DNA of 64,000 nt from an uncultured Gammaproteobacteria bacterium. GTDB lineage: Bacteria; Patescibacteriota; Patescibacteriia; UBA1558; 2-01-FULL-52-15. Made by a program: the position numbers and the translations under genes. Positions within the stretch are counted from its first letter, which is position 1, and each line of letters starts with the position of its first letter. Of the stretch, positions 6,110 through 27,982 are shown in pieces. Location: assembly GCA_964402565.1 (NCBI GenBank), contig CAYOCJ010000002.1:661-64660 (forward strand). Reading direction: 5' to 3'. The notes beneath the pieces were generated by a model, which saw only the letters and a list, made by a program, of their open reading frames with translations, ran no database searches and had not been told where the DNA came from.

Positions 6110-6376
6110 AGTAATTTATTACTGGTAATTCTCTCTTTTCACTTGCATCAAGTGCGCGCCGCATGAAAAGAATAATGTATCTTGTTGTACTTCTGGTTCG
6201 ACCGATGATTCGACTGTACCCACTGAGCAAAGGATTGTCATGAGTATATCGAAAGACCGAAGTTTCAGTATACTACCTGCTTTGACTCAGGCTGTCAACC
6301 CATTAAGGGTTTTAATTCTATATGCTAGCTAGCTATACAAAACACTAAGCCTCGTGTTATACTATAGCCATTCAGT

Positions 6377-7228
6377 ATGCAAAAAATCACGAAAGCTATC
6401 ATTGCTGTTGCTGGAGCTGGGACTCGCTTCCTGCCAGCGACAAAATCCATGCCTAAAGAGATGCTTCCGATCGTCGACCGACCGATTATTCAGTTGGTCG
6501 TTGAGGAATTGGTCGAGGCAGGCATTACTGACATCATACTCGTTACTAAATGGGACAAAAAGCCTCTCGAAGATTACTTCGACCGCAGCCTGGGGCTCGA
6601 ACAGGATCTGGCAAAAGCAAAGAAGACTGAGCTCTTAACTAAGGTCAAAAGGGTCTCTGAAATGGCGAATTTCATCTATATTCGGCAGAAAGGTCCCTAT
6701 GGCAATGGGACACCCGTGTTGTCTGCCGCGAGCCTTGTCGCCAATGAACCTTTCGTCTTCGCCTGGGGAGATGATCTGGTCAGATCGAAAGTATCTTTCA
6801 CGAAACAGATGATCGATGACTATAGCAAAACCGGCCATCTGATGATCGGAGTCCAGAAAGTGCCCAAGAAAGATGTGCATCGCTATGGCATCGTGAAACT
6901 ACATAAGAACAGCATGCAGCTTGCCGACATTGTCGAAAAACCATCCATCGAGGAAGCGCCATCACAATACGCGGACTTCGGCCGCATGATCCTGAATCAG
7001 GATATCATTTCAGTCTTGCAGAAAACGAGACTCGGCAAGGGCCGTGAACTGTGGATCGTCGACGCGATCCGTGGCTATATCAAGGCCGGCGGCGCGTTCT
7101 TCGCGAAAGCCATTACCAATGGTGAGTGGCTAACCACCGGAGATCCTCTGAACTTCATGAAAGCCTATCTCGAGTACGCCATGGACTATCCAGAGTTACG
7201 CGCCTATCTCAAAAAGAAAAAGTTCTAA
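6377..7228 (+). CDS. galU: UTP--glucose-1-phosphate uridylyltransferase
   Basis: KAIIAVAGAGTRFLPATKSMPKEMLPIVDRPIIQ, a GalU-type nucleotidyltransferase signature. Confidence 0.85.
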   Translation: MQKITKAIIAVAGAGTRFLPATKSMPKEMLPIVDRPIIQLVVEELVEAGITDIILVTKWDKKPLEDYFDRSLGLEQDLAKAKKTELLTKVKRVSEMANFIYIRQKGPYGNGTPVLSAASLVANEPFVFAWGDDLVRSKVSFTKQMIDDYSKTGHLMIGVQKVPKKDVHRYGIVKLHKNSMQLADIVEKPSIEEAPSQYADFGRMILNQDIISVLQKTRLGKGRELWIVDAIRGYIKAGGAFFAKAITNGEWLTTGDPLNFMKAYLEYAMDYPELRAYLKKKKF

Positions 7229-7240: not shown

Positions 7241-8632
7241 ATGGATTCCAAATATATCCTAATTCCTGTCGCCATCGGGGGCCTCATCCTCGCGGTACTT
7301 GTATACTTTACGGTCGTCCAAATCACCAACAGCGGGAAAGCGAAAAACTATCCTCCGGTCGTCCTCCAGTATTGGGGCGTCAATGAAACACCCGAAGACA
7401 TCTCGCTCCTCACGAAAGCATATACAGCTCGCCATCCGAAGATCAGCATCAACTACCGAACATTCCGTGAGGATGAGTATAAGCAGAAATTGCTCGAGGC
7501 ATGGGCCTTGGGTCAGGGGCCGGATATGTTCATGATCCCTTCTACGAAGATCCGCGAATTCATGAAATTCATCACGCCGATGCCGGCGACCATGAACTCT
7601 CCGGTGCAATACCAAAAAGGTACCATCAAAAAAGAGACCGTCGATGAAGTTCGCGCCTACCCTGGGCTCACGCCAAGTGATATCAAAAATACCTTCCTCG
7701 ATGTTGTCTCGAATGACGTGGTCATTGACAACAAGATATGGGGACTTCCCTATAGCGTCGACACACTCTCGGTCTACTATAATCGTGAGATGCTGAAAAA
7801 CGCGAATATCCCACTTCCCGCCAAGAGCTGGGAAGAGTTGATCGCGCAAGCGCCCGCCATAACGAAGCTGGATTCCAATGACACTATTGTGCAGTCAGCT
7901 ATCGCGATGGGAACGACGAATAATATACCAACCGCCCTTGAGATCATCATCAACCTCATGATGCAGATAGGCGTGCATATCAGTGACGCTTCCGGTCCGC
8001 TCTTCCATACCAATCCAGACAGCCTGAAAGCTATTGATTTTTTCCTGACCTTTGCCCAAAAAGGTCTTTCAAATTACTCCTGGAACAAGGATCTCCCTGA
8101 TGCTTTTGATCAATTTACCTCAGGGAAATTGGCTTACTTCATCGGGTATCCTTACCACGCGAATCTCATTAAACAAGCTAATCCGCAGCTCGACTTCGAT
8201 GTCATACCGATGTTCCAGACAGCAGGGGCCGAAAATCCGCCAAGTTATGCGTCTTACTGGGTTACCGTGGTGACTAAACCTCGCGCCGGGGAATCTACCC
8301 AGAAATCCGAGCTTGCCTGGCAATATTTGCTTGAAAGCACGGCGAAAGATAATGTGAATACGTTCCTTACCAACCCAACCCATCCACGCACGACCGCGCT
8401 CCGAGCATTGGTCGATACCCAAAAATCCGATCTCTTCCTCGGCCCATTCGCTCAGAGTTTACTGAATAGCCAAAGCTGGTACCAAGGGTATAATTATGAT
8501 CTCGCGAAAAAATACTTCCTCGATATGATAAATAACCTCAGCACTACGACCCCTATGGGAGCTGCCGGGCCGCAACAATTCCTCAGTGCTGGCGCTGATC
8601 TCATACGACAAACCTATTCACCGACCGAATGA
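7241..8632 (+). CDS. Membrane-anchored extracellular solute-binding protein (ABC substrate-binding family 1-like)
   Basis: 463 aa. N-terminal TM/signal anchor followed by a periplasmic-binding-protein-like domain. Its stop overlaps the start of the next gene (ATGA). Confidence 0.45.
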   Translation: MDSKYILIPVAIGGLILAVLVYFTVVQITNSGKAKNYPPVVLQYWGVNETPEDISLLTKAYTARHPKISINYRTFREDEYKQKLLEAWALGQGPDMFMIPSTKIREFMKFITPMPATMNSPVQYQKGTIKKETVDEVRAYPGLTPSDIKNTFLDVVSNDVVIDNKIWGLPYSVDTLSVYYNREMLKNANIPLPAKSWEELIAQAPAITKLDSNDTIVQSAIAMGTTNNIPTALEIIINLMMQIGVHISDASGPLFHTNPDSLKAIDFFLTFAQKGLSNYSWNKDLPDAFDQFTSGKLAYFIGYPYHANLIKQANPQLDFDVIPMFQTAGAENPPSYASYWVTVVTKPRAGESTQKSELAWQYLLESTAKDNVNTFLTNPTHPRTTALRALVDTQKSDLFLGPFAQSLLNSQSWYQGYNYDLAKKYFLDMINNLSTTTPMGAAGPQQFLSAGADLIRQTYSPTE

Positions 8633-9321
8633 AATCATCGACTCGCCTCATGCTACTCTGTTGTATCGTCGTGAGCTTCGCGCTCAGCGCCGCATTGACC
8701 GCAGCGCAAGCTCAAACCAACCCCAATGCCATCCTTCGTGGAGAAGGAACGGCCGCAGGGATCGGCGCGGATGCGAATAACCCGGTCACGCTCGCTGACT
8801 GTACGAATACCGGCAACTGCAGCATCGAACATATACTGCTTCTCGCGAACAGCATCATACGCTGGGCAGTGGCGATCAGCGGATCGGTTGCTCTCCTCAT
8901 GTATGTCATCGGGGGCGTTTGGATGATCTTCTCACAGGGAAACTCGAGCCGGATCGAACACGGCAAAGATATTATCGTCGGCACCAGCATCTCGCTCATC
9001 TTCATTCTGGGAGGATGGCTCATTATTCAATTCGCTCTGCAGAGCGTGGGAGCGAAGAGTCAATTCCTCTTGAAACCGAACAACTGTGGTACGAGCGGTG
9101 AGTGCCCTTATGGACAAGTGTGCTCGAAGAATAAATGTGTCGAGCGCTGTGTCACTGACAAAGCCGAGAAAGATCCTGATCATCCATGGCAGTGTCAGGA
9201 TATGAACCAATGCGGCATAGCATCAGCGAATGACTGCTCAGCGCATTCCGGAAATTGCGCTCTCAATCTCTGCATCACACAACCAGCGAACATCGTCTGC
9301 TGCTGGAATCCGAATTTATAG
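8629..9321 (+). CDS. T4SS-pilin/TrbC-VirB2-like two-helix protein with Cys-rich C-terminal extension (paralog 1)
   Basis: Signal peptide, then helix-VIGGVWMIFSQGNSSRIEHGKD-helix, then a ~95-aa tail with 16 Cys. Confidence 0.5.
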   Translation: MKSSTRLMLLCCIVVSFALSAALTAAQAQTNPNAILRGEGTAAGIGADANNPVTLADCTNTGNCSIEHILLLANSIIRWAVAISGSVALLMYVIGGVWMIFSQGNSSRIEHGKDIIVGTSISLIFILGGWLIIQFALQSVGAKSQFLLKPNNCGTSGECPYGQVCSKNKCVERCVTDKAEKDPDHPWQCQDMNQCGIASANDCSAHSGNCALNLCITQPANIVCCWNPNL

Positions 9322-9353
9322 CATTTTTCCAAAAAAACAAGTACCATACATCT

Positions 9354-9797
9354 ATGCAATACAAAATAAAATCACGGACCATACTGTTCGGCATAGTGTT
9401 TGTGGCAATACTATCTCTGTCGTTGCTCTTCAGCGCTCAGAGTGTCCGAGCGCAAGGTTGCTATCCAAGTGATTTTGTCGGACCACTACCACCAGGCGCT
9501 GTACGTTGCGCTGCCACTGGTGGCGGAACTGGCATCCCCCTACAGAACCCTATCAACGCAACCAGCGTTCCTGAGCTGGTGAACTCAATAGTCAAAGCAA
9601 TCCTCGGTATGGTCGGTGCTCTCGCACTCTTCATGTTCGTCTATGGCGGTATGCTGTGGATGACTTCCGCTGGAAATGCTCAGCGGATCGAGAAAGGTAA
9701 AGAAACGTTGATCTGGGCGACCATAGGTCTGGTCATCATCTTCGCGAGCTATGCAATATTGAGCTTTATTTTCACCGCGCTCAGTGGGAAAAGCTAA
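9354..9797 (+). CDS. T4SS-pilin/TrbC-VirB2-like small membrane protein (paralog 2)
   Basis: Signal peptide; FVYGGMLWMTSAGNAQRIEKGKE lies between two hydrophobic helices. Start chosen at MQYKIKS rather than the upstream in-frame Met, which overlaps paralog 1. Confidence 0.5.
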   Translation: MQYKIKSRTILFGIVFVAILSLSLLFSAQSVRAQGCYPSDFVGPLPPGAVRCAATGGGTGIPLQNPINATSVPELVNSIVKAILGMVGALALFMFVYGGMLWMTSAGNAQRIEKGKETLIWATIGLVIIFASYAILSFIFTALSGKS

Positions 9798-9798
9798 C

Positions 9799-9826
9799 TT
9801 GCAAAATAAGCGTTTTGTGGTATAAT
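9799..9826 (+). promoter_or_regulatory. Sigma-70-type promoter with extended -10 (TTGCAA-16-TGgTATAAT)
   Basis: Read directly from the sequence. It is 57 bp upstream of the paralog-3 ATG. A GGGGGTG Shine-Dalgarno lies 6 nt before the ATG at 9884. Confidence 0.6.
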
Positions 9827-9883
9827 TGTCATAGTTCTTTCTGGCGTTTACCATCTTAAAGTAACATGAAAGGGGGTGAATAC

Positions 9884-10243
9884 ATGAAAAAACTACTCAC
9901 AAAGGCATATCGCGTGGCTTATCTAGCTCCTCTGGCCCTCGGTGCAACAGCCCACGCACAAGGAGTTTCCATTGACTTTCCAAGTTCATTCGCTGGTTTC
10001 AGTTCGCAAGACCTGAAGACCACGATCCAGAACATCATTCGGATCATCGTTGGTTTCCTTGGCATCATTACCATCTTGATTATTCTCGCTGGTGGCTTCA
10101 AATGGATGACCTCAGGCGGTAGCGAAGATAAGATCGGAGAAGCAAAGAAACTTATCAGCGCTGGCGTTGTCGGTCTCGTTGTTGTCCTCGCTGCTTACGC
10201 AATCGCAAGCTTCGTTGTCAACAGTCTGCAGAAAGCTGTCTAG
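9884..10243 (+). CDS. T4SS-pilin/TrbC-VirB2-like small membrane protein (paralog 3)
   Basis: MKKLLTK... signal peptide ...AGGFKWMTSGGSEDKIGEAKK... second helix. Start moved to the Met that has the Shine-Dalgarno. Confidence 0.55.
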   Translation: MKKLLTKAYRVAYLAPLALGATAHAQGVSIDFPSSFAGFSSQDLKTTIQNIIRIIVGFLGIITILIILAGGFKWMTSGGSEDKIGEAKKLISAGVVGLVVVLAAYAIASFVVNSLQKAV

Positions 10244-10264
10244 AAGCCTCAAGATACACAGAGC

Positions 10265-10300
10265 ACCAACCGCTGCGGTATTCCGCAGCGGTTGGTTTTT
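10265..10300 (+). terminator. Rho-independent terminator
   Basis: accaaccgctgcgg-tattc-ccgcagcggttggt followed by TTTTT. Confidence 0.7.
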
Positions 10301-10376
10301 ATATATTAGTGTTATGTCAGACCTAGAGACAACCATCTAGAGATACGCTTATACACTATCTCTATAATGATCCAAG

Positions 10377-10404
10377 TTGCAAAATAAGCGTTTTGTGGTA
10401 TAAT
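10377..10404 (+). promoter_or_regulatory. Duplicate copy of the extended -10 promoter
   Basis: Identical TTGCAA-16-TGgTATAAT, 578 bp downstream of the first copy. Confidence 0.6.
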
Positions 10405-10461
10405 TGTCATAGTTCTTTCTGGCGTTTACCATCTTAAAGTAACATGAAAGGGGGTGAATAC

Positions 10462-10821
10462 ATGAAAAAACTACTCACAAAGGCATATCGCGTGGCTTAT
10501 CTAGCTCCTCTGGCCCTCGGTGCAACAGCCCACGCACAAGGAGTTTCCATTGACTTTCCAAGTTCATTCGCTGGTTTCAGTTCGCAAGACCTGAAGACCA
10601 CGATCCAGAACATCATTCGGATCATCGTTGGTTTCCTTGGCATCATTACCATCTTGATTATTCTCGCTGGTGGCTTCAAATGGATGACCTCAGGCGGTAG
10701 CGAAGATAAGATCGGAGAAGCAAAGAAACTTATCAGCGCTGGCGTTGTCGGTCTCGTTGTTGTCCTCGCTGCTTACGCAATCGCAAGCTTCGTTGTCAAC
10801 TCATTACAGCAGGCCGTCTAA
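10462..10821 (+). CDS. T4SS-pilin/TrbC-VirB2-like small membrane protein (paralog 4, duplicate of paralog 3)
   Basis: Protein identical to paralog 3 except the C-terminal ...SLQQAV versus ...SLQKAV. Confidence 0.55.
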   Translation: MKKLLTKAYRVAYLAPLALGATAHAQGVSIDFPSSFAGFSSQDLKTTIQNIIRIIVGFLGIITILIILAGGFKWMTSGGSEDKIGEAKKLISAGVVGLVVVLAAYAIASFVVNSLQQAV

Positions 10822-10893
10822 TCTTTCTTACGACTTACAGTCTAAGCTATCCCTCCTCTTCTATGGGGAGGGGAAGTATATACTCTAAGATCC

Positions 10894-11301
10894 ATGCGAA
10901 AAATAATTACGCGTTCTATTCCCAGCACACTCAGTTTCTTATTTTTTTTTATTGTGGGGTCAAAAGCCCTCGCAGATGATCCGTTTGGACTCAAGGGAGC
11001 TGCGAGCGGCACCGGCGTTTCGACAGCAGAGCTAACGGGTCAGGGCTCTATCATTTCGGTCGTCATTTTCAATTTACTAGGTATAGTCGGCGTGATCTTC
11101 CTAATACTCATGATCTGGGGAGGGACCATGTGGATGACCTCAGGCGGTAATGAGAAGCGCGTCGGCACCGCGAAGAGCATACTCACGACCGCGGTCATAG
11201 GGCTGGTCATAGTGCTCATGGCCTATAGCATTACTTACTTCATCGTACAGAATCTAACAGCGGTACAAGGACCAGCAAGCGCTGGATCTGGCAGCCCTTA
11301 A
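10894..11301 (+). CDS. T4SS-pilin/TrbC-VirB2-like small membrane protein (paralog 5)
   Basis: IWGGTMWMTSGGNEKRVGTAKS lies between two hydrophobic helices. Gly/Ser/Ala tail. Confidence 0.5.
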   Translation: MRKIITRSIPSTLSFLFFFIVGSKALADDPFGLKGAASGTGVSTAELTGQGSIISVVIFNLLGIVGVIFLILMIWGGTMWMTSGGNEKRVGTAKSILTTAVIGLVIVLMAYSITYFIVQNLTAVQGPASAGSGSP

Positions 11302-11312
11302 CACAACCACCC

Positions 11313-11714
11313 ATGAAAAAAATATTTCAATATGTCTGGCTTCTTCTTCTCGGCTTACCAACACTCACACTTGCAGCAGTGCCACCAACGCTGCAAAATC
11401 TAGATCTCGTCGGCAAAGGAAGTGGCTACCAGCAAAGTGACATTAAGATGACCATCGTTGGTATCATACAAGTACTGCTTGGTTTTATTGGTATTGTCTT
11501 TTTCATACTCATCCTCTGGGGAGGTTTTCAATGGATGACCTCGGGGGGTAATGAGAAAAAAATAGAAGACGCCAAAAAACGCCTTACGAGCGCTACTATC
11601 GGTCTCGTTCTGGTGCTTATGTCATACGCCATAGCAAGATCTATCAACTTGTGGCTCGCAGCCGCAGTCGGTAATGGCGCTACTTCCAACGCAGCGGGCA
11701 GCGGCAGCCCTTAA
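11313..11714 (+). CDS. T4SS-pilin/TrbC-VirB2-like small membrane protein (paralog 6)
   Basis: Signal peptide; LWGGFQWMTSGGNEKKIEDAKK between helices. The tail ...NAAGSGSP matches paralog 5. Confidence 0.5.
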   Translation: MKKIFQYVWLLLLGLPTLTLAAVPPTLQNLDLVGKGSGYQQSDIKMTIVGIIQVLLGFIGIVFFILILWGGFQWMTSGGNEKKIEDAKKRLTSATIGLVLVLMSYAIARSINLWLAAAVGNGATSNAAGSGSP

Positions 11715-11742
11715 ATCCTAAAAATCATCGTATAACGAAAAA

Positions 11743-11772
11743 CTCCCTGGTCACCGTGAGGCGACCAGGGAG
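11743..11772. terminator. Stem-loop between convergent genes; better terminator for the minus-strand gene
   Basis: ctccctggtc-(10 nt)-gaccagggag. On the minus strand it is followed by TTTTTCGTT; on the plus strand the T-tract is weak. Confidence 0.5.
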
Positions 11773-11792
11773 TCCTGTTGCGATCGAACACA

Positions 11793-12611: not shown

Positions 12612-14513
12612 ATGCTGGAGTTCAAACATACCAAAAAAATAGAACCACTATGGCTACTATGGTCAGCCATACTGTGCTATACGATCTTGTTCAGCATACT
12701 AGTCCTGTGGAAATACGCTCACTTCTACTATGACAATCTGGACCTGGCTATTTTCAATAATGTGTTCTGGAACACCTTGCATGGGCACTGGTTCCAGGCG
12801 AGCATACATCCGCCAAGCTACCTGGGTGACCACTTTTCGCCCTCCTTGTTTTTGCTCATGCCGTTCTATGCACTAGCGCCCACTCCTCAGACACTCCTCA
12901 TCCTGCAAACAGTAGCGCTTGGATTGTCAGCGCAACCCATCTATTTGATCAGTGAGTATATTGTTGGCAAGGAACGGAAATGGATGCCGCTGTTCATCAG
13001 CATGCTCTGGCTGGTGAATCCTCTGGTACATAATATGAATTTCTTTGAGTTCGAGCTTATGTCCTTTGCTGTGCTGGGGCTACTCTGGACGATCTGGGCC
13101 TATCTCAAAGAGAAACCAACCCTCTTCATCATTGCTTCTCTCTTCACTCTCGGCATGCGCGAAGACTTCGTCTGTATCTTTTTTGTATTCAGCATACTGG
13201 CCCTGCTGGATAAACGATCACTATTCTGGAAGCTCTATCCAATCCTTTCTTCGGCGGCATGGGGCATTCTTGCCTTCTGGACGATCAGTCTCTATGCGCC
13301 ACAGAATTCGTATAAATTTTTACGCTACTATGACTGGCTCGGGGGCACTACTCTCTGGTCCATCATCGCGAGTTTCGCCCTGCATCCGATCCAAGTACTC
13401 GCGCATCTCACCACCTGGTATAACCTGGAATTCGTGCTTGGGTTATTGTTCCCGTTCTTCTTCTTTGTCTCATTCCGGAATCGATACTCCCTGCTACTCA
13501 TTCCTCCTGCGGCGCAAATACTGCTGGCAGGTTTCGGAGGAAGCGGACTCATACTCGGCACCTACTATGCCGGTTACCTTGTTGCCATACTGTTCCTCTT
13601 ATTCGCGCTGCAGGTACGAGATTTCGACTTCACAAAACTTCCTGGATGGCTGCCGGTAGAACTCCGCTCACGACGCGTACTCTCTGCGATCATCGCTTGT
13701 GCCGCACTCTATGCTGCCGCGACCTATGGATCGATCTCGACCGCTCTTGCTTGGTGGCAGAAGCCGCATGAGCTAGTTGCTAAAGAGCATATGCTTGCTG
13801 CACTGCCTAGCGATGCTGCAGTCGCTACGACCTACTCCCTGCTACCGACCGTTTCTAGTCGACAGTATGTGTACTTATTCCCTTATGCCGCGATCGGTAA
13901 AAATCAATTCGCATTGAGTGAGTATGCGCTGCCGGAAAACACCGAGTATCTGCTTATTGATTGGGATGAAATGGTATTAGCGCAGATGCATTTCAGTCAA
14001 AACGCCGCTTTCAGTCCGTATGCAGATACGGTACCCAAAAATCTTCGAACTATACTATCTCAATTTTCTATCATTAGAGCAGAAGGTCCTATCTATGTAT
14101 TACAACGAGCTACTGATGCCGGCACAGTACAGCAGCTTGCCGCACTACGGCATACTTCTCAAACCGCGGACGCTGCAGCGACTATCACGCAAGTATCGCC
14201 AGATGCTGATCATATCGCCGTAACGATCGCTCTGCCGCAAAAGACAAACACCCAGAAATACTACTACCTTGAAGTGTCTGACGCTAGCGAAACATTCCGC
14301 CTACCGCTCGGGTACGATCTGTTTGGAATTGGCGAGCTCGACGGAGCGTCTACCGTACACATGCCTGTATTCATTGGTCCGGCCACGAAAAATATTATGC
14401 TGCGGCTCTATGCCTGGAGCAAAGGATCGATTGAGTTGAGCGGGATCAAGAGCATCCATCCGACGAGCGATGCCACAGAAATCAGTAGTTACAGTTACAA
14501 TACAACGCGATAG
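12612..14513 (+). CDS. Polytopic membrane protein (DUF2079-like / GT-C-like)
   Basis: 633 aa. N-terminal pattern YDNLDLAIFNNVFWNTLHGHWFQASIHPPSYLGDHFSP recalled as DUF2079-like. About 12 TM helices, then a soluble C-terminus. Confidence 0.4.
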   Translation: MLEFKHTKKIEPLWLLWSAILCYTILFSILVLWKYAHFYYDNLDLAIFNNVFWNTLHGHWFQASIHPPSYLGDHFSPSLFLLMPFYALAPTPQTLLILQTVALGLSAQPIYLISEYIVGKERKWMPLFISMLWLVNPLVHNMNFFEFELMSFAVLGLLWTIWAYLKEKPTLFIIASLFTLGMREDFVCIFFVFSILALLDKRSLFWKLYPILSSAAWGILAFWTISLYAPQNSYKFLRYYDWLGGTTLWSIIASFALHPIQVLAHLTTWYNLEFVLGLLFPFFFFVSFRNRYSLLLIPPAAQILLAGFGGSGLILGTYYAGYLVAILFLLFALQVRDFDFTKLPGWLPVELRSRRVLSAIIACAALYAAATYGSISTALAWWQKPHELVAKEHMLAALPSDAAVATTYSLLPTVSSRQYVYLFPYAAIGKNQFALSEYALPENTEYLLIDWDEMVLAQMHFSQNAAFSPYADTVPKNLRTILSQFSIIRAEGPIYVLQRATDAGTVQQLAALRHTSQTADAAATITQVSPDADHIAVTIALPQKTNTQKYYYLEVSDASETFRLPLGYDLFGIGELDGASTVHMPVFIGPATKNIMLRLYAWSKGSIELSGIKSIHPTSDATEISSYSYNTTR

Positions 14514-16147
14514 ACCGTGAGCGGCCCTGCGTTCATAACTTTCTTCACGAAAGGCGCTGTCTCAAGCCACTGCACTTCATGCCCTAACCGAAGTGAGCTA
14601 ACGACGATATAAGATATCGTCTCTTGTTGTAAAAAGTTCTTGCGCAACTCAAGACTCGCCGAGGTTTCCGGCTCTGAAAAGAACCAATCCATCTGCTGCT
14701 GTTTCAGCGGCGCCTGCGGTGTCTGATGATCATGTCCGCGAAAGACGAGCCGATTCAATTCGCTGGTGAGCGTGAACGATGTTTTCATGTCTGAAGTCAG
14801 CAGGTGATCATTCACCGTCGTTGCACCTCGCAGAAAATCTATCACCTGCTTCTCATCTGGCGTGATATAGTAGTAGCCATACCCATACGCGCTCGGTTCA
14901 AAATAGAGATTGATAACAAAATACAGACCAAGAGAACTGCCGAGCGCCACAGCAAGGATAAGCACGTAGATTACCCGAAGCCATTGCCTGTGTATCGCGC
15001 GGAAAAGGTAGCTGCATCCAGCATAGGCCGTTATCGCCAAAACAATATGCCAGCCATTGATGAAGCGCCTATTCACATCGAGCGGAAGATATAAGAGCAG
15101 CGGTATGATAGCGCACCAAATCAAGATCATCGCCCACCATGGATCATGCTTCTTCTGTGTGCCCATCATGAACAATCCCACGAGCGCTAAGGGTAGGAGC
15201 AATCCATATCCCCAGAGGTAGTTCGTTATGAGCGGCGAATACACCAGGTTCTGCTCATACCATGATCGCAAGACCGGCTCACTGAAAAGCGCGTAGAAAT
15301 TATAGGCAATAGTTATGAGCGCGGCGCAACCCAATAACATGAAACGCTTCAAGCTCAACCATGAGCCAGAAGTATAGATATGCCACACCGTCCATGAGCC
15401 TAAGACGGCGAAGACAATAGGCATATCATAGGGATGCATAGTACCGAGCACCAGTATGATGGCAGCGTTCACGCTATCCCAGAGCCAATTAACCTTCTCT
15501 CGATACCTGACAAAGATGAACGCGCTCGCGACTAAGGCGACCTGCGAAAAACTGAACAAAGGCGCTTGAGCGAAATTCAATAAGGTATTCCCCTCAGTAA
15601 CATACAGATCAACCGGCGAAAAGAAAAATTTTATCTGACTCGACGCCTGTAGGAGCCACGGATGCGTGATCAGATAGAGCCAGCCAAACCCTCCGGAAAA
15701 ATAGACGAAAAGACCGGCGATGACCCGCTCGACTTCATGAACAAAGAGCTGCGCCAAAAATAAATATAGCAGCCAGCAAAAGATAAGCGTGAAAAGAACT
15801 CGGTAGATCTGGTAAGCCGCATTGTTCGTCAGGTTGAACCAAGCCCCAGTCTGCCCTATCACATACCATACTGGCGAGAGCATACGTCCATGCTGCGGAT
15901 CGGTCGTATGCACATTGCGCATGAACAGTATCCCCTCCCTTCCCTGCTGTATCATATTCTTATAGACCATCTTGTCAGCAGCAGTGTAGGGATTCGCGCC
16001 AGTATACGCATACCCTGCCGGCGTATGCACGGCAAAGTTCAACTGTCCCATACTTGTGAGCAGCACGAATGTTACTGACGCTACACCATACAACCAATGC
16101 TCCCGCGTTACTCGCCTCACATACTGATAGGCTGATCGAATATTCAT
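14495..16147 (-). CDS. Polytopic membrane protein, GT-C-like (paralog B)
   Basis: 550 aa. Shares with the next ORF the N-terminal Y-x-YTGA...AAD-K-x-VY...MIQQG-x-EG-x-LFM-x-NVHT-x-x-PQ and C-terminal GH-x-HQT...MDWFF-x-EP-x-TS. Confidence 0.45.
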   Translation of the reverse strand: MNIRSAYQYVRRVTREHWLYGVASVTFVLLTSMGQLNFAVHTPAGYAYTGANPYTAADKMVYKNMIQQGREGILFMRNVHTTDPQHGRMLSPVWYVIGQTGAWFNLTNNAAYQIYRVLFTLIFCWLLYLFLAQLFVHEVERVIAGLFVYFSGGFGWLYLITHPWLLQASSQIKFFFSPVDLYVTEGNTLLNFAQAPLFSFSQVALVASAFIFVRYREKVNWLWDSVNAAIILVLGTMHPYDMPIVFAVLGSWTVWHIYTSGSWLSLKRFMLLGCAALITIAYNFYALFSEPVLRSWYEQNLVYSPLITNYLWGYGLLLPLALVGLFMMGTQKKHDPWWAMILIWCAIIPLLLYLPLDVNRRFINGWHIVLAITAYAGCSYLFRAIHRQWLRVIYVLILAVALGSSLGLYFVINLYFEPSAYGYGYYYITPDEKQVIDFLRGATTVNDHLLTSDMKTSFTLTSELNRLVFRGHDHQTPQAPLKQQQMDWFFSEPETSASLELRKNFLQQETISYIVVSSLRLGHEVQWLETAPFVKKVMNAGPLTVYRVVL

Positions 16148-17766
16148 GAACGTACCTTAAAAATTCTGACAGCGACCGAATCATAGACGCGCTGTACTCC
16201 TGGCAGTGTATCCAGCCAATCATACGAGGCTGTCATACTAGGTTTATAGATTATAATGCTGGTGATCTTGTTGTGAATGAGAAAATCCCTACGATTCGTA
16301 AAGGCTACTGATGTCTGAGGTTCGGCAAAGAACCAATCCATCTCATTCTTCTTCAGCTCATACTGTACCGTCTGATGCGCGTGCCCGACGAAGAGCCTCG
16401 TCGGCGCATATGCAGCTGAGAGTATGCCAATAAAACTAGTGCTCGGCAAGAGCACATCCTGATAGGTCAGCTGGTTGTGCAGCTGCGTCAAGGCATCGGT
16501 TATATACGGATCGAGATAGTAGTTATACTTCTCACTCAAGGTGGGCTGATAGAACAGCTGCTCAGCGATCTGATACAGCACTCCTGAAGAAAGCAGCATA
16601 GCACAGAAAATACCAACCGCGGCGCGTAGAGCAAAGGGTTTTACTGCACGCAGCAAATGCGTAAGCCCATACCAGCTAAGGAGACCCAAGGGTATCAACA
16701 AGGTATTCGCGAAACGCCGATTGATGGATGTCGGCTCATAGATCAATAGCAGTATCGCGAGCGCCCAAAACAAGACTAAGCGCCAATATTGGTCGTCCAA
16801 GGCTCGGTTACGCACCAAGTACCAAACACCGAGCAGCGCGAGCGGTCCAGTCATACCAATACCCCATAGATAATTACTGATGGAAGGCGAAAAGGCGATA
16901 TTCTGAGATAGCCAGCCAGATAATGCGGGCTCTCGAATAAGGCTGATGCCGTGGTAGATGCATGCTAGTGCCGCGCCCGTCACGAGTGGCCAGAGGCGAA
17001 TAACAATACTCGCGACGTCTTGTTGGAACACTTCGCTCAGAGCTAGAGCGGTAGTAACAATGATAAGCAGCGGTAGATCATAGGGATGCATCGCACCGAA
17101 GAGGGCAACGATGCACATGAGCGCCACACTCGACTTGAACGACCTCCGTTCTCGTAAAAACAAGAGCCACACTGCAAGTATCAACAGGTGTGAGAGTATG
17201 AATAGCGGCGACTGCAGCGTATTCGTGAAGGCGCTGAACTCTGTCACATACAGATCTATCGGTGTTTGATTAAAATGCTGCAACCAATGCACAGAGCTGT
17301 CGGCAATCTCAGGGTGAGCTATGAAATACAACCAGCCAAGGCCTGAGCTGAAAAGGACCAGGGCGAAAGCTCCGATCTGATCCCCTGTGTGAGCGAACAG
17401 TTTTCGGATAAAGCTATAGAGCAGCAATAAAAAACCAACTGTCGCTATCCAACGATAGAGATGATAGGCGAGCGGTATCGGCATATCGAGAAGTCGCGAA
17501 GTCATGCCGATAAGATACCAGTGCGGCGAGAAGAGTAGGCCGAGCTGCGGTTCGGACGTGTGCACATTCTGCATGAAGAGTCTGCCTTCCGCTCCCTGCT
17601 GTATCATCGAATAGTATACGAACTTATCAGCGACCGCTTCCAGGCCGGCGCCAGTATACTGATGCCCTGGCGGCGTTTCAAGATACAAACGTACAAAAAC
17701 GATATTCGTCGCAAGCAGAAAAAGCACTCCAATGCCGATGAACCATCGTTGCTTTCGTGTCTCCAT
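16144..17766 (-). CDS. Polytopic membrane protein, GT-C-like (paralog A), 4-nt overlap with paralog B
   Basis: 540 aa. Same conserved blocks as 14495-16147. The pair is a tandem duplication. Confidence 0.45.
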   Translation of the reverse strand: METRKQRWFIGIGVLFLLATNIVFVRLYLETPPGHQYTGAGLEAVADKFVYYSMIQQGAEGRLFMQNVHTSEPQLGLLFSPHWYLIGMTSRLLDMPIPLAYHLYRWIATVGFLLLLYSFIRKLFAHTGDQIGAFALVLFSSGLGWLYFIAHPEIADSSVHWLQHFNQTPIDLYVTEFSAFTNTLQSPLFILSHLLILAVWLLFLRERRSFKSSVALMCIVALFGAMHPYDLPLLIIVTTALALSEVFQQDVASIVIRLWPLVTGAALACIYHGISLIREPALSGWLSQNIAFSPSISNYLWGIGMTGPLALLGVWYLVRNRALDDQYWRLVLFWALAILLLIYEPTSINRRFANTLLIPLGLLSWYGLTHLLRAVKPFALRAAVGIFCAMLLSSGVLYQIAEQLFYQPTLSEKYNYYLDPYITDALTQLHNQLTYQDVLLPSTSFIGILSAAYAPTRLFVGHAHQTVQYELKKNEMDWFFAEPQTSVAFTNRRDFLIHNKITSIIIYKPSMTASYDWLDTLPGVQRVYDSVAVRIFKVRS

Positions 17767-17814
17767 ACTGAAAGTATTCTATCACAGCTCTGCCATCATA
17801 GACTATCATTGACG

Positions 17815-19413
17815 CTAGAGCGCTTGTGCTGGTGTGTATCGATAGAGCCACACCTCATCATCCTCATACACGAGCCTGAAATAAATGTTCGAGGCTACTG
17901 TTTTCTGAAATGCAGCATGGTCTTTATCAACCAGTACATAGCGGGCGTGAAAATCCTGGTCTACTACTTGTACCAAATTATCAGTGCTGCCATTCGCGGT
18001 AAGATCAGCCCATTCCGCATAGAGCTTCGGGCTATAGTTATACATGAATGTCGGATCAAGCCCTACGAGATAATAGTTCCTCTGATTATAGTAGAAAAGC
18101 ATCGGCCAATCATCCCAGTCACTCTGCAGCACGATTGTTTCCGGCAACGTGTTCTGCGCCAACCAGTTGGATACCTTCTGATACTGATGCAATGGGATAC
18201 CTTGCGCAACCTCAGCGCGTACTTGTTCGATACGACCCCATAGTCCAGCTCGCGGCAGGGCGACGAGCATGGCTATGACAACTAAGGCAACGATAGTGAG
18301 ATTCTGCTTCATTCGGCGATGCATATGCCAGGATCGCCACAGGTGTTCGAAGATATGATACTGGAACACGTCGGCCCATGCGGAAGATGCCGCAATGATC
18401 ATCGAAGGCGCCGCAAGCTCTATGTAGCGACGCGACTTATACATGAACACCGAGAACAAGAGCGTGAGAGCGAACAGTACCCAGGTACGAAATGTAATAC
18501 GTCGCACCTCAAGTATGATCAAGGTACAGAGTAGCGCGCCAGCAATGGCCGTCAGTCCTAAGTTATTTACGAATTCATATGGCGAGAGACTGCTCCACTC
18601 ACCACCGACATTCACCACACTTCCTTGATTAACGATAGCTATCTGCCAAATTTGCTGCCAGTAGAACCGCACATTGTGCGGCCAATACGGATTCACTATC
18701 AGGCCGACCAAAGACCCCCCGACCGTAGCGAGCACTGGCTTCAGCATCGGTATGCGGCGCAATCCCCGCAATCTACTCAAGAAGCGATGACGCCTGAAAC
18801 CTCGGGCTAAGAATACCCAATACCAAAAGGCGACGAAGCTATAGACAAAGGCAGCGACCCACGCCACGATCCATCCACCGTAGAGCCACACGAATATAGT
18901 ATTGAGCATGGCAAGCAGCCACCAACGCCGTTCGAATAAGCATATCAAAATACACAAGAGTAGTATCAGCGAAACACTGTTCGCTTTAACCAGACTCAGG
19001 CGAAAGAGGAACCCGCTTGAGAAGAATAGCGTCAGTGTCGCGAGCAGCGGACCGGCGAAACGTAACCTGCGCAAGGTCCCATAGAGTGTGACGAAAAAGG
19101 CGGCTCCGAACGCAGCGGTCGCGAGCTTTACCCCTAAGAGCGGATTGCCGAGTATGACGAACGGTATGAGCAATGCATGGTAGAGCAAATGATGATCCGT
19201 AAAATACATCCGCAGAGTCGTTGCCTGCATCCAGGGCATATCCTTCAAGATCACCCCGCGTGAAAGAAATTGCGCCATCGCGGCATGATAGAAGCCGTCT
19301 GGATCGCCCATCACCTGATTGTATTGAATATATACTGCTATCGCGAAAAATCCGACGAATAAAAAAAGGTAGTCGAGCCTCCTCGCCCGTATCGCTCGCC
19401 AGAGTTCACCCAT
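17815..19413 (-). CDS. Polytopic membrane protein, GT-C-like
   Basis: 532 aa. DPDGFYHAAMAQ in the first loop region. About 12 TM helices and a C-terminal soluble domain. Confidence 0.4.
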   Translation of the reverse strand: MGELWRAIRARRLDYLFLFVGFFAIAVYIQYNQVMGDPDGFYHAAMAQFLSRGVILKDMPWMQATTLRMYFTDHHLLYHALLIPFVILGNPLLGVKLATAAFGAAFFVTLYGTLRRLRFAGPLLATLTLFFSSGFLFRLSLVKANSVSLILLLCILICLFERRWWLLAMLNTIFVWLYGGWIVAWVAAFVYSFVAFWYWVFLARGFRRHRFLSRLRGLRRIPMLKPVLATVGGSLVGLIVNPYWPHNVRFYWQQIWQIAIVNQGSVVNVGGEWSSLSPYEFVNNLGLTAIAGALLCTLIILEVRRITFRTWVLFALTLLFSVFMYKSRRYIELAAPSMIIAASSAWADVFQYHIFEHLWRSWHMHRRMKQNLTIVALVVIAMLVALPRAGLWGRIEQVRAEVAQGIPLHQYQKVSNWLAQNTLPETIVLQSDWDDWPMLFYYNQRNYYLVGLDPTFMYNYSPKLYAEWADLTANGSTDNLVQVVDQDFHARYVLVDKDHAAFQKTVASNIYFRLVYEDDEVWLYRYTPAQAL

Positions 19414-21988: not shown

Positions 21989-22037
21989 ATCGGTGATGCC
22001 GTTCCACCAAATGTACGGCATCGAAATCGCTTTTCGC

Positions 22038-22065
22038 CAAAAGTCCCTTCGGGGATTTTTGGTTT
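22038..22065 (+). terminator. Terminator-like hairpin with UUCG tetraloop
   Basis: caaaagtccc-ttcg-gggatttttgg, followed by TTT. Confidence 0.4.
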
Positions 22066-23080: not shown

Positions 23081-23141
23081 TGCCTCCTCCGCAGCCTCCT
23101 ATTCTGCGGTTTGTTATGAGTGAATGAGCGGCCGCGCTCGC

Positions 23142-27981: not shown

Positions 27982-27982
27982 C

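What the first reader, a model, noticed from the sequence alone, without database searches (positions are those of the whole stretch)
7241..11775. Solute-binding-like lipoprotein followed by six tandem T4SS-pilin-like (WMTSGG) paralogs
Six consecutive small ORFs share the same architecture: signal peptide, hydrophobic helix, the conserved loop G-G-(F/T/M)-x-W-M-T-S-(G/A)-G-(N/S)-(E/A)-x-(K/R), second hydrophobic helix. This is the topology of TrbC/VirB2 conjugative pilins and of the T4SS-pilin family reported as expanded in CPR bacteria. The first paralog overlaps the stop of a 463-aa membrane-anchored solute-binding-like gene (ATGA), so the array is probably co-transcribed with it. No VirB4, VirB6 or VirD4 genes are adjacent. 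A pilin paralog array coupled to a binding protein and with no secretion ATPase nearby could be a surface-filament or attachment module rather than a conjugation system.
Basis: partly seen in the sequence, partly recalled or inferred. Interest (0 to 1): 0.7.

Follow-up and report, generated by a model that had tools for sequence, protein, structure and literature searches.

The report
Sugar-binding protein coupled to pilin-gene array
A tiny uncultured bacterium of the candidate phyla radiation carries six tandem genes for secretion-system-type pilins, a gene array already described in this group, and they sit directly behind a sugar-binding surface protein in a pairing that recurs in about 80 related species and that I found in no paper.

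Summary
Window 7241-11775 encodes a membrane-anchored family-1 solute-binding protein (SBP), whose stop overlaps (ATGA) the first of six tandem small genes. Five of the six pass the Pfam T4SS_pilin (PF18895) cutoff. The first is a sub-threshold variant with a cysteine-rich C-terminal tail. All six have a signal peptide and two hydrophobic helices. The one AlphaFold model made of a canonical member shows a helical hairpin.

Corrections: this SBP has no cysteine, so it is not a lipoprotein. The WMTSGG loop fits five genes, not six. Genes 3 and 4 are a recent perfect duplication that includes their promoter.

VirB2-like pilin arrays in Patescibacteria are already published, so the array itself is a known kind. 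The SBP partnership appears to be new. In 80 of 81 related loci a pilin gene starts directly after the SBP ortholog, usually overlapping it or within 30 nt. The array members are position-specific orthologs, not variable cassettes. Recurrent neighbours are envelope-glycan genes. T4SS genes are not among them.

No VirB4, VirB6 or VirD4 lies in the 64 kb window, but the genomes of two relatives with the same gene order encode VirB4 elsewhere. Independence from a T4SS is therefore not shown. The role of the SBP is inferred, not shown.

The parts
6377..7228 (+). galU-like sugar-1-phosphate nucleotidyltransferase (NTP_transferase). It lies 12 nt upstream of the SBP and is probably the first gene of the transcription unit.
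   Evidence: ORF. PF00483 is assigned to the identical gene in L001. A homolog sits directly upstream on the same strand in 49 of 75 related loci. A weak promoter-like site lies at 6334-6363.
7241..8632 (+). Membrane-anchored family-1 (MalE/sugar-type) solute-binding protein, 463 aa, with one N-terminal TM segment (residues 8-26) and no cysteine.
   Evidence: SBP_bac_1 70 bits, SBP_bac_8 65 bits. The closest solved structures are sugar or oligosaccharide SBPs, E 3e-10 to 1e-4. TM segment and 0 Cys. Lipobox in 64/108 homologs but not here.
8629..9321 (+). Pilin p1: a variant pilin (loop GGVWMIFSQGNSS) with a roughly 90-aa C-terminal tail carrying 12 Cys. Its start overlaps the SBP stop (ATGA).
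   Evidence: PF18895 24.8 bits, E 2.4e-5, below the 26.6 cutoff. The core is highly conserved in its own orthologs. Cys-rich tails (3-19 Cys) occur in about half of the SBP-adjacent pilins in relatives. The AF2 model is poor, pLDDT 59.
9354..9797 (+). Pilin p2, 147 aa, the best family match. The mature N-terminus carries 2 Cys.
   Evidence: PF18895 50.7 bits; TrbC 22.4 bits. NF045849 37.3 bits, below the cutoff of 40. Position-2 orthologs are 75-83% identical in L008/L009/L002.
9799..9826 (+). Promoter-like site TTGCAA-16-TATAAT with an extended -10 TG, upstream of p3. An identical copy lies at 10377-10404.
   Evidence: The orthologous position in L002 has TTGCTA-16-TATAAT with TG at 8515-8542.
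9866..10243 (+). Pilin p3 copy A. The likely start is ATG 9884, after the SD sequence AAAGGGGGTGA, giving 119 aa. Inferred to be the major subunit.
   Evidence: PF18895 40.0 bits; TrbC 26.8 bits. Most conserved member: 82-86% identical to position-3 orthologs in L009 and L002, against 58-61% for the SBP. It has its own promoter and terminator.
10265..10296 (+). Intrinsic terminator after p3 copy A: a 14-bp GC-rich stem followed by UUUUUAUAU.
   Evidence: Fold -29.9 kcal/mol, z = -6.9.
10444..10821 (+). Pilin p3 copy B (likely start 10462), a recent tandem duplicate of copy A with one amino-acid difference (K to Q near the C-terminus).
   Evidence: 424 nt are 100% identical, 9799-10222 against 10377-10800. 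Protein sequences. Close relatives have a single copy.
10894..11301 (+). Pilin p4 (fifth gene), 135 aa, with a Ser/Gly/Ala/Pro-rich C-terminal tail ending in GSGSP.
   Evidence: PF18895 29.9 bits. Orthologous to position 4 in L009/L002/L012, 45-58% identical. Alignment.
11313..11714 (+). Pilin p5 (sixth gene), 133 aa, with a C-terminal tail ending in GSGSP.
   Evidence: PF18895 34.6 bits. AF2 model pLDDT 77 with helices 44-75 and 81-120, about 90 in that region. Orthologous to position 5 in L009/L002/L012. Orthologs carry similar S/T/G/P-rich tails.
11743..11772 (.). 10-bp-stem hairpin between the convergent genes p5 (+) and a 215-aa gene (-). On the minus strand it is followed by UUUUU, so it is a likely terminator for that gene and possibly bidirectional.
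   Evidence: Sequence. Folds of -31.4 (+) and -34.9 (-) kcal/mol, z = -5.6 and -6.1.
12612..14513 (+). DUF2079 polytopic membrane protein, a conserved downstream neighbour of the array (context, not part of the array).
   Evidence: PF09852 163 bits. Present downstream in 30 related loci.
14495..19413 (-). Three polytopic membrane proteins with no Pfam match (550, 540 and 532 aa), conserved neighbours on the opposite strand (context).
   Evidence: No Pfam match. 7-9 TM-like segments. The 550- and 540-aa proteins are paralogs. The 532-aa family recurs in 20 loci and matches the 522-aa family of the second locus architecture (hhalign probability 98.7%). Similarity to PMT_2-like proteins is weak, probability 68-81%.

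Best explanation
This is a chromosomal gene set of a Komeilibacteria-like (class ABY1) Patescibacterium. It supplies the subunits of a VirB2/TrbC-type pilus-like polymer together with a dedicated sugar-type binding protein.

Shown:
- Each small gene encodes a pre-protein with a Sec-type signal peptide (AxA site) and two hydrophobic segments. The one canonical member modelled (gene 6) folds as a two-helix hairpin.
- The inter-helix loop (GG-x-x-WMTSGGN...AK) is the most conserved part of the protein. The mature N-terminus and the C-terminal tails are variable.
- The set has five fixed members. p1 has a Cys-rich tail and is translationally coupled to the SBP. p2 follows. p3 has its own promoter and terminator, is the most conserved member and is duplicated here. 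p4 and p5 have Ser/Gly/Pro-rich tails. The members are position-specific orthologs across related genomes.
- The SBP-pilin gene pair is nearly invariant across about 80 species.

Inferred:
- p3 is the major subunit and the others are minor or adaptor subunits.
- Polymerisation uses the monoderm-type T4SS (VirB4, VirB6, VirB3) encoded elsewhere in the genome.
- The membrane-anchored SBP works with p1 at the cell surface as the ligand-binding (glycan or oligosaccharide) component of the structure.
- The whole serves host contact or capture of host-derived material, not conjugation.
For: Family assignment: five of six genes are above the PF18895 cutoff. TrbC hits are sub-threshold but have significant E-values (6e-6). 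Hits to the Mycoplasma-ICE pilin-like model are below its cutoff.

Structure: hairpin model for gene 6 with pLDDT about 90 in the helices. Signal peptide plus two hydrophobic segments in all six.

Conservation: among 419 pilins, G83 and G91 are 98% conserved, W86 79%, T88 75% and K100 73%. The mature N-terminal segment carries about 0.5-1.2 bits per column.

Orthology by position: w1 matches p1, w2 matches p2 (57-83% identity in L008, L009, L002, L012), w3/w4 match p3 (78-86% in L009, L002, L012), w5 matches p4 and w6 matches p5. The SBP is 52-64% identical in the same loci.

p3 expression signals: promoter conserved in L002; strong terminator.

SBP-pilin pair: 80 of 81 loci. The first pilin ATG overlaps or lies within 30 nt of the SBP stop in 70 of 79 loci, and 21 of these have the ATGA overlap. 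The pair also holds for divergent SBPs in L005, L006, L007 and L089 at 26-38% identity. Meanwhile the upstream and downstream neighbours change between two locus architectures.

T4SS link: VirB4 is present in the genomes of L002 and L010. TrbL_3 genes follow the array in L007.

Literature: an essential array of six VirB2-like pilins in Southlakia (PMC10633639; PMC12857230). 441 arrays in 383 assemblies, mostly without a relaxase (PMC12102498). T4SS pilins are among the most highly expressed secreted genes in Paceibacteria (PMC10936435).

The locus is core chromosome: it is flanked by rpsP, trmD and pgi, its GC matches the surroundings, and no integrase or relaxase was seen.
Against: - No T4SS component lies in the 64-kb window or within 8 kb in 83 of 84 loci.
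- I could not search the rest of this genome, so VirB4 is inferred from relatives.
- Fold searches give only generic helical hairpins. No solved pilin is retrieved by sequence or by fold.
- No pilus of this type has been seen in any Patescibacterium (the review calls it a possibility).
- Nothing here shows physical contact between the SBP and p1. No SBP-pilin fusion was found.
- The recurrent neighbours are glycan-assembly genes, which fits an envelope role equally well.
- 'p3 is the major subunit' rests on promoter and terminator consensus matches and on sequence conservation only.
Confidence: 0.5

Rival explanations
1. One reading: a self-contained surface-filament or attachment module made of the SBP and the pilin paralogs. 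It would assemble without any T4SS ATPase and would be unrelated to secretion.
For: No VirB4, VirB6 or VirD4 lies in the window. None is among the recurrent neighbour families of 84 loci. The SBP-pilin pair is conserved on its own.
Against: To my knowledge, no VirB2/TrbC-type pilin is known to polymerise without VirB4 and VirB6. Genomes of syntenic relatives encode VirB4. L007 has VirB6-like TrbL_3 genes right after the array. Separation of pilin genes from virB4 is common in the phylum.
Confidence: 0.15
2. Not a filament. The pilin-like two-helix proteins stay in the membrane and act with the SBP in envelope-glycan assembly or protein glycosylation. They could be substrates (via the S/G/P-rich tails or the Cys-rich tail) or scaffolds for the neighbouring GT-C-like, Wzx, Wzy_C and GalU enzymes. 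Alternatively they form an unconventional SBP-dependent membrane complex.
For: Recurrent neighbours are galU (55 loci), a Wzy_C O-antigen-ligase-like gene (29), a Polysacc_synt flippase (26), DUF2079 (30), GT2 (15) and PMT_2-like or unknown polytopic proteins. The SBP has no ABC permease partner nearby. The tails of p4 and p5 and of their orthologs are Ser/Thr/Gly/Pro-rich. From my own knowledge, orphan SBP-fold proteins can act in glycolipid biosynthesis, for example mycobacterial LpqW.
Against: The proteins are homologous to pilins. The glycan genes are less consistently linked than the pilins are: galU is upstream in 49 of 75 loci and DUF2079 is present in 30 of about 84. The similarity of the polytopic neighbours to PMT_2 is weak. 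No precedent is known for VirB2-like proteins in glycan assembly.
Confidence: 0.2
3. The adjacency is inherited gene order with no functional coupling. The SBP is an ordinary (orphan) nutrient-binding protein that happens to sit upstream of a pilin array.
For: All loci come from one part of the phylum, mostly ABY1 by record titles. Two divergent SBP relatives (L088, L090) have no pilin next to them.
Against: The pair survives while both flanks change between architectures A and B. It holds down to 26-27% SBP identity. Start and stop overlap or lie within 30 nt in 70 of 79 loci. No ABC importer genes accompany the SBP.
Confidence: 0.1
4. The paralog array is a variation cassette for antigenic or host-range switching, as proposed for Bartonella and Anaplasma VirB2 paralogs and suggested for Patescibacteria.
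For: The paralogs are only 28-35% identical to each other. The exposed N-terminal segment is the most variable part. The published survey suggests this idea.
Against: Members are position-specific orthologs. p2 and p3 are more conserved between the closest related loci (75-86% in L009 and L002) than the SBP, galU or DUF2079. That indicates fixed, non-redundant roles. The only recent change is a dosage-type duplication of p3.
Confidence: 0.05

Closest known systems
Essential VirB2-like pilin array of Candidatus Southlakia epibionticum ML1 (Saccharimonadia), SEML1_0006-0019 T4SS cluster (Wang et al. 2023, PMC10633639; reviewed in PMC12857230)
   Same: Patescibacterial chromosome. About six tandem, sequence-divergent, structurally similar VirB2-like pilin genes. 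No relaxase. A non-conjugative role is proposed.
   Different: There the array lies inside the T4SS cluster, beside VirB4- and VirB6-like genes. Here it is detached (no T4SS gene in 64 kb), is headed by an SBP and a Cys-rich-tail pilin, and lies among envelope-glycan genes. Essentiality has not been tested here.
VirB2 arrays across Patescibacteria (Quinonero-Coronel et al. 2025, PMC12102498): 441 arrays of 2-11 PF04956/PF18895 genes in 383 assemblies
   Same: The same Pfam family and tandem organisation. Low identity among paralogs (they report a mean of 25% and a maximum of 54%; here 28-35%). Often in the origin-proximal part of the chromosome (here about 48 kb from dnaA).
   Different: That survey was centred on virB4 neighbourhoods. 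Its main text does not contain the terms 'solute-binding' or 'substrate-binding'. It reports arrays as most abundant in Microgenomatia and Saccharimonadia, whereas this one is from ABY1. Here two members are 99% identical (a recent duplication), and orthology by position is shown.
TrbC/VirB2 conjugative pilins of Gram-negative T4SS (Pfam PF04956; e.g. Agrobacterium VirB2, RP4 TrbC)
   Same: Signal peptide plus two hydrophobic helices joined by a short conserved loop. Sub-threshold but significant PF04956 hits (E 6e-6).
   Different: Below the family cutoff. Monoderm host. No adjacent VirB3, VirB4, VirB5 or VirB6. Multiple fixed paralogs. The tails (Cys-rich, S/G/P-rich) are not features of classical VirB2. 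Processing or cyclisation is unknown.
Mbov_0395-family pilin-like conjugal transfer proteins of Mycoplasma ICEs (NCBIfam NF045849)
   Same: Small two-helix pilin-like proteins of wall-less or monoderm bacteria. Best NCBIfam match for genes 2-6 (25.8-37.3 bits).
   Different: All scores are below the cutoff of 40. Those proteins are single genes inside mobile conjugative elements. This is a core-chromosome array with an SBP.
Archaeal bindosome of Sulfolobus (Bas system), in which sugar-binding proteins are assembled at the surface with pilin-like proteins (from my own knowledge; not tested here)
   Same: Conceptual parallel only: sugar-type SBPs genetically and functionally tied to small pilin-like proteins at the surface of a cell without an outer membrane.
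   Different: The bindosome uses type IV (class III signal peptide) pilin-like proteins and a type IV pilus ATPase. Here the pilins are VirB2-type with Sec signal peptides. No homology is implied.

Membership tests
Pfam PF18895 T4SS_pilin | Whole-protein score at or above the gathering cutoff (26.6 bits) | tested here: met
   Genes 2-6 score 50.7, 40.0, 40.0, 29.9 and 34.6 bits. Precomputed PF18895 hits exist for the orthologs.
Pfam PF18895 T4SS_pilin | The same cutoff applied to gene 1 (8629-9321) | tested here: not met
   24.8 bits, E 2.4e-5. Gene 1 is homologous, but it forms a distinct, well-conserved subfamily with a variant loop and a Cys-rich tail.
Pfam PF18895 T4SS_pilin | Signal peptide followed by two long hydrophobic helices forming a hairpin | tested here: met
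   Hydropathy and AxA sites in all six genes. AF2 model of gene 6: helices 44-75 and 81-120, pLDDT about 90 in that region.
TrbC/VirB2 pilin family (Pfam PF04956) | Score at or above the gathering cutoff (27.9 bits) | tested here: not met
   Best 26.8 bits (genes 3 and 4; E 6e-6) and 22.4 bits (gene 2). No hit for genes 1, 5 and 6.
TrbC/VirB2 pilin family (Pfam PF04956) | Encoded with the T4SS assembly genes (VirB3, VirB4, VirB6 and so on) | tested here: not met
   None among the window ORFs scanned. None among the recurrent neighbours of 84 loci, except TrbL_3 in L007.
TrbC/VirB2 pilin family (Pfam PF04956) | Polymerises into an extracellular pilus in a VirB4-dependent way; pilin processing or cyclisation | not testable with these tools
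   Needs microscopy, biochemistry or genetics. Fold searches return only generic helical hairpins.
Patescibacterial VirB2-like pilin arrays (PMC12102498; PMC10633639) | Two or more PF18895/PF04956 genes in tandem on a Patescibacterial chromosome | tested here: met
   Six tandem genes. The SBP and pilin homologs are named Komeilibacteria or Patescibacteria by their sources.
Patescibacterial VirB2-like pilin arrays (PMC12102498; PMC10633639) | Divergent paralogs (reported mean 25% and maximum 54% identity) | tested here: met
   28-35% identity to gene 2. Exception: genes 3 and 4 differ by 1 of 125 residues, a recent duplication.
Patescibacterial VirB2-like pilin arrays (PMC12102498; PMC10633639) | A VirB4-type T4SS in the same genome | not testable with these tools
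   Only the 64-kb window of this genome is available. The syntenic relatives GCA_001818395.1 and GCA_001818365.1 are listed as VirB4-positive.
Family-1 ABC-importer solute-binding proteins (Pfam SBP_bac_1 / SBP_bac_8) | Profile score above the cutoff, with a MalE-like fold signature | tested here: met
   70 and 65 bits. PDB sequence matches to sugar or oligosaccharide SBPs. Conserved GPD-x-F and many invariant aromatic residues.
Family-1 ABC-importer solute-binding proteins (Pfam SBP_bac_1 / SBP_bac_8) | Lipoprotein anchoring (lipobox cysteine), as the finding's title states | tested here: not met
   0 Cys in this protein and a single TM segment at residues 8-26. A lipobox is present in 64 of 108 homologs.
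Family-1 ABC-importer solute-binding proteins (Pfam SBP_bac_1 / SBP_bac_8) | Encoded next to cognate ABC permease and ATPase genes | tested here: not met
   The only ABC system in the window is an ABC-2 exporter pair at 27220-28774. No permease or ATPase is among the recurrent neighbours.
NCBIfam NF045849 Mbov_0395 pilin-like conjugal transfer protein | Score at or above the cutoff of 40 bits | tested here: not met
   37.3, 33.0, 33.0, 25.8 and 32.6 bits for genes 2-6. No hit for gene 1.

The most novel reading that the evidence does not exclude
In ABY1-type Patescibacteria the T4SS-type pilin set is one half of a two-part surface device. The other half is a sugar-binding receptor. The SBP is tethered through the Cys-rich-tail pilin p1 to a VirB2-like polymer or channel, and it captures a host-derived or self-made glycan at that structure. 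That would make it a bindosome-like uptake or recognition organelle. It might involve O-glycosylated pilin tails made by the neighbouring GT-C, Wzy_C and GalU genes. This would be the first ligand-binding partner assigned to a VirB2-type pilus. It would give direct support to the published speculation that the Patescibacterial T4SS and pilus serve uptake from the host.
Probability: 0.2. Interest if true: 0.8.

Novelty: new variant of a known kind. Interest (0 to 1): 0.5.

Why it matters
What the essential T4SS and its VirB2-like pilin arrays do in Patescibacteria is an open question. The only experimental system shows essentiality, and reviews speculate about a pilus used to exchange signals or take up material from the host.

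A near-invariant, translationally coupled partnership between a sugar-type binding protein and the first pilin of the array, seen in about 80 species, gives a concrete and testable handle. The SBP can be expressed and screened for ligands. The SBP-p1 pair can be modelled and tested for binding.

The fixed five-member composition predicts a heteromeric structure with defined roles, not interchangeable variants. p3 carries its own promoter, and p1 and p4/p5 carry distinctive tails.

The locus also shows that pilin sets can lie far from the T4SS cluster, among envelope-glycan genes. Surveys centred on virB4 neighbourhoods would miss such sets.

If the coupling is only historical, this is one more member of an already described class.

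Tried and rejected
2. A profile of gene 6 and its homologs against PDB sequences retrieved no pilin.
3. The afdb50 fold library was not available.
I treat this as a lead only.
5. An apparent SBP-pilin fusion ORF in L071 is an artefact of a run of N. No SBP domain occurs in the 150 best pilin-family representatives. There is therefore no Rosetta-stone evidence.
6. The AF2 model of gene 1 is too poor (pLDDT 59) to interpret the Cys-rich tail. Pfam and NCBIfam hits to Cys-repeat families are insignificant.
7. I tried to reach the rest of this genome to look for VirB4. The exact-protein look-up returned only a 4.2-kb Logan contig, the look-up for gene 1 found nothing, and cluster members carry no accession. 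The genome is not among the 80 best loci the GTDB scan returned (best hit 64% identity).
8. The first genome scan, with a 24-sequence SBP alignment, failed for lack of conserved stretches. It was repeated with nine closer sequences.
9. I tested whether the three unknown polytopic neighbours are VirB6/TrbL-like. They have no Pfam hit and no similarity to the L007 TrbL_3 proteins. There are only weak hhalign links to PMT_2-like proteins.
10. I considered a mobile element or ICE and rejected it. The flanks are housekeeping genes, the GC is uniform, there is no integrase or relaxase, and synteny is conserved.

Full report
**1. What is in the sequence**

Between 7241 and 11775 the + strand carries seven genes.
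- The first is a 463-aa protein that matches the family-1 solute-binding profiles: SBP_bac_1 70 bits and SBP_bac_8 65 bits, against cutoffs of 26-27. Its closest solved relatives are sugar and oligosaccharide binding proteins, E 3e-10 to 1e-4.
- It has one N-terminal hydrophobic segment (residues 8-26) and no cysteine. It is therefore anchored by an uncleaved signal-anchor, not a lipid. 64 of 108 homologs carry a G[LFI][GS]C lipobox at the same place.
- Its stop overlaps the ATG of the next gene by four bases (ATGA, 8629-8632).
- Six small genes follow: 8629-9321, 9354-9797, 9866-10243, 10444-10821, 10894-11301 and 11313-11714.
- Five of them pass the Pfam T4SS_pilin (PF18895) cutoff of 26.6 bits (50.7, 40.0, 40.0, 29.9, 34.6). 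The first scores 24.8 bits (E 2.4e-5). Genes 2, 3 and 4 also give sub-threshold TrbC/VirB2 hits, up to 26.8 bits against 27.9, E 6e-6.
- NCBIfam's nearest model is the Mycoplasma-ICE 'Mbov_0395 pilin-like' family, below its cutoff.
- An HMM built from the six genes finds exactly these six in all six-frame ORFs of the window.

All six have a signal-peptide-like N-terminus with an AxA site and two hydrophobic segments. The AlphaFold2 model of gene 6 (26-sequence alignment, mean pLDDT 77) has two long helices, residues 44-75 and 81-120. They are joined by the SGGNE turn, with pLDDT about 90 in that region.

**2. Corrections to the observation**

- The loop motif fits genes 2-6. Gene 1 has a variant (GGVWMIFSQGNSS) and a roughly 90-residue C-terminal tail with 12 cysteines.
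- Genes 3 and 4 are not old paralogs. A 578-bp tandem duplication makes 9799-10222 and 10377-10800 identical over 424 nt, and the proteins differ at one residue.
- The identical block begins with a promoter-like site (TTGCAA, 16 nt, TATAAT, preceded by TG). It contains a strong Shine-Dalgarno sequence (AAAGGGGGTGA) in front of the second ATG (9884 / 10462), which is the likelier start.
- Copy A is followed by a strong terminator at 10265-10296 (-29.9 kcal/mol, z -6.9).
- The hairpin that closes the finding (11743-11772) sits between convergent genes. Its U-run is on the minus-strand side.
- The region therefore probably forms three transcription units: galU-SBP-p1-p2, p3, and p3'-p4-p5. This is inferred from sequence signals only.

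**3. Where it comes from and what surrounds it**

- Sources name the SBP homologs Candidatus Komeilibacteria or Patescibacteria. The published genome table places Komeilibacteria assemblies in GTDB class ABY1.
- The window is core chromosome. Identified genes include rpsP, trmD, galU, pgi, purD, a sigma-70 factor, parB, guaB, purA, tig, nusA, an H+-pyrophosphatase, gdh, yidC, dnaA and dnaN.
- None of the roughly 55 larger ORFs scanned has a VirB4, VirB6/TrbL, VirD4 or relaxase domain. The only ABC system is an ABC-2 exporter pair at 27220-28774. 'No secretion ATPase nearby' is true for this window.

**4. Comparison with related loci**

- Contexts of SBP homologs show the same order in Komeilibacteria (58% and 49% SBP identity): galU, SBP, a 214-223-aa pilin-like gene, four pilins, a small minus-strand gene, DUF2079, and large polytopic proteins.
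- A scan of one genome per GTDB species found 487 relatives of the SBP. The best 80 loci were kept.
- With the window's pilin HMM, 80 of the 81 loci that have at least 500 nt downstream carry a pilin ORF directly after the SBP. These 81 include the metagenome contigs. The median is five pilin ORFs downstream and the maximum twelve.
- The first ATG of that pilin overlaps the SBP stop in 33 of 79 loci (21 with the same 4-nt overlap). It lies 0-30 nt after the stop in 37 more.
- The pair also holds for divergent SBPs at 26-38% identity (L005, L006, L007, L089).
- Two other divergent relatives next to VanW genes have no pilin (L088, L090). This marks the edge of the association and shows that the HMM is not promiscuous.
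- The flanks differ between two architectures. One is galU-SBP-pilins-DUF2079. The other is SMC-SBP-one pilin, then an HTH_25/Glucodextran_B gene, a methyltransferase and PMT_2-like genes, then a second block of five or six pilins. The SBP-pilin junction stays constant in both, which argues against simple inherited gene order.

**5. The array is a fixed set, not a cassette library**

- Best reciprocal matches follow position. In L009, L002 and L012, window gene 1 matches position 1, gene 2 position 2, genes 3 and 4 position 3, gene 5 position 4 and gene 6 position 5.
- In L009 and L002, positions 2 and 3 are more conserved (77-86% identity) than the SBP (58-61%), galU or DUF2079. Positions 1, 4 and 5 are less conserved, 42-58%.
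- The promoter in front of position 3 is also present in L002.
- Position-1 pilins form their own subfamily with a very conserved core. In about half of the loci they carry a Cys-rich tail of 3-19 cysteines.
- Across 419 pilins the most conserved columns are the two glycines (98%) and the W-M-T-S-x-G-N...A-K loop between the helices. The mature N-terminal segment is the least conserved.
- From my own knowledge of solved F- and T-pilus structures, the inter-helix loop lines the lumen and both termini face outward. The pattern here would then mean a conserved interior and a diversified exterior, with the tails of p1, p4 and p5 displayed outside. That mapping is inference.

**6. What is already known**

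- VirB2-like pilin arrays in Patescibacteria are published. Wang et al. 2023 found a series of essential predicted pilins inside the T4SS cluster of Southlakia epibionticum, with no recognisable coupling protein or relaxase.
- Quinonero-Coronel et al. 2025 searched 3,035 genomes with PF04956 and PF18895. They found pilins in 1,948 VirB4-positive assemblies, near virB4 in 1,135 of them. They also found 441 arrays of 2-11 genes, and they suggested host-range versatility.
- A 2025 review calls a T4SS pilus in these monoderms an intriguing possibility and speculates about uptake from the host.
- Metatranscriptomics puts T4SS pilins among the most highly expressed secreted genes of some Paceibacteria.
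- My profile search of 1.84 billion cluster representatives found 83,343 family members at E <= 0.001, so the family is very large.
- None of these papers mentions a solute- or substrate-binding protein with the pilins, judged by term searches of the two main texts. Two full-text searches for the combination found nothing relevant. That is absence within the searched library, not proof of novelty.

**7. Relation to a T4SS**

- I could not reach the rest of this genome.
- The two named Komeilibacteria assemblies that share the synteny, GCA_001818395.1 (L002) and GCA_001818365.1 (L010), are listed as VirB4-positive.
- For ABY1 the survey reports T4SS loci next to comF, recG and radA. None of these is in this window.
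- In L007 two VirB6-like TrbL_3 genes follow the SBP-pilin array. No other locus has them.
- The simplest reading is that the pilin set is encoded apart from the machine that assembles it. This is inferred.

**8. Neighbourhood theme**

Clustering 886 neighbour genes from the loci and annotating representatives gives these recurrent families:
- galU (55 loci)
- an HTH_25/Glucodextran_B protein (42)
- DUF2079 (30)
- a Wzy_C O-antigen-ligase-like protein (29)
- a Polysacc_synt flippase (26)
- RecA (25)
- FtsK (20)
- SMC (18)
- a GT2 glycosyltransferase (15)
- several polytopic membrane families without a Pfam match

The 532-aa window protein belongs to the same family as a 522-aa protein of the second architecture (hhalign probability 98.7%). 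Links to PMT_2-like proteins are weak, probability 68-81%. The locus thus sits among envelope-glycan genes. Together with the Ser/Gly/Pro-rich tails of p4, p5 and their orthologs, this leaves open that the pilins are glycosylated or that the SBP handles a glycan. It is suggestive only.

**9. Verdict**

The pilin-family identity is secure. The array as such is a new member of a published class. The variant features are:
- the near-invariant, translationally coupled SBP partner
- the Cys-rich-tail first pilin
- the fixed five-member composition with a separately promoted, here duplicated, third member
- the detachment from T4SS genes, in a glycan-gene neighbourhood

My preferred mechanism is a T4SS-assembled heteromeric pilus-like structure with an SBP as its ligand-binding accessory. 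It is about 50% likely as a whole. The weakest links are T4SS dependence and any physical tie between the SBP and p1. The main alternatives are a membrane or glycan-assembly role, T4SS independence, and adjacency without function. Tests for each are listed under next steps.

Noticed in passing
window 9799-10222 and 10377-10800: A perfect 424-nt tandem duplication carries the promoter, the ribosome-binding site and nearly the whole third pilin gene. The copies diverge only in the last ~20 nt of the coding sequence, and only copy A has a terminator. Close relatives have one copy. An independent Logan assembly breaks at this repeat: its contig ends after gene 2.
   Followed up: yes
window 62700-64000: GC jumps to 0.586, against 0.43-0.46 just upstream. 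The ORFs here (62861-63520 on + and 62879-63607 on -) have no Pfam match. This could be foreign DNA or an assembly join right after dnaN and a GT2 gene.
   Followed up: partly
window 22000-36000: A block of higher GC (0.51-0.575) holds purD, a sigma-70 factor, parB, guaB and purA. It is compositionally distinct from the 0.43-0.50 of most of the window.
   Followed up: no
window 14495-19413 (- strand): Three polytopic membrane proteins of about 540 aa have no Pfam match. The 550- and 540-aa proteins are paralogs (E about 1e-100). The 532-aa protein belongs to a family found on the opposite strand next to pilin arrays in at least 36 loci of both architectures. Their relation to PMT_2-type glycosyltransferases is only weak.
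   Followed up: partly
protein library hits P0119-P0268: Many family representatives contain 2-17 pilin domains in one predicted protein, for example 1775 aa with 17 matched stretches. These could be true polyproteins or fused gene calls. I did not resolve which.
   Followed up: no
window 6377-7228 compared with L002/L009 and L017/L021/L033/L035: The window's galU is 72-73% identical to the galU of loci whose SBP is only 37-43% identical. It is only 38-45% identical to the galU of the closest SBP relatives. This suggests two galU types, or a replacement at the left edge of the locus.
   Followed up: partly
L007 11463-17350: In one divergent Patescibacterial contig the SBP and four-pilin array is followed by a 750-aa unknown protein and two large TrbL_3 (VirB6-like) proteins. 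This is the only locus where T4SS genes abut the SBP-pilin set.
   Followed up: partly
L088 and L090: A sister group of the SBP (23-27% identity) lies next to VanW/PG_binding_4 genes and has no pilin neighbour. In both loci small unknown genes sit between groES and groEL.
   Followed up: partly
window 55000-62000: The cumulative GC skew reaches its minimum at about 56 kb, next to yidC, dnaA and dnaN, which fits the replication origin. The galU-SBP-pilin genes on the + strand would then be transcribed head-on to the leftward fork, unlike most genes on that side.
   Followed up: no
L071 3194-5101: An apparent 636-aa SBP-pilin fusion ORF is caused by a run of masked or unknown bases (N) bridging the two genes. 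It is not a real fusion.
   Followed up: yes
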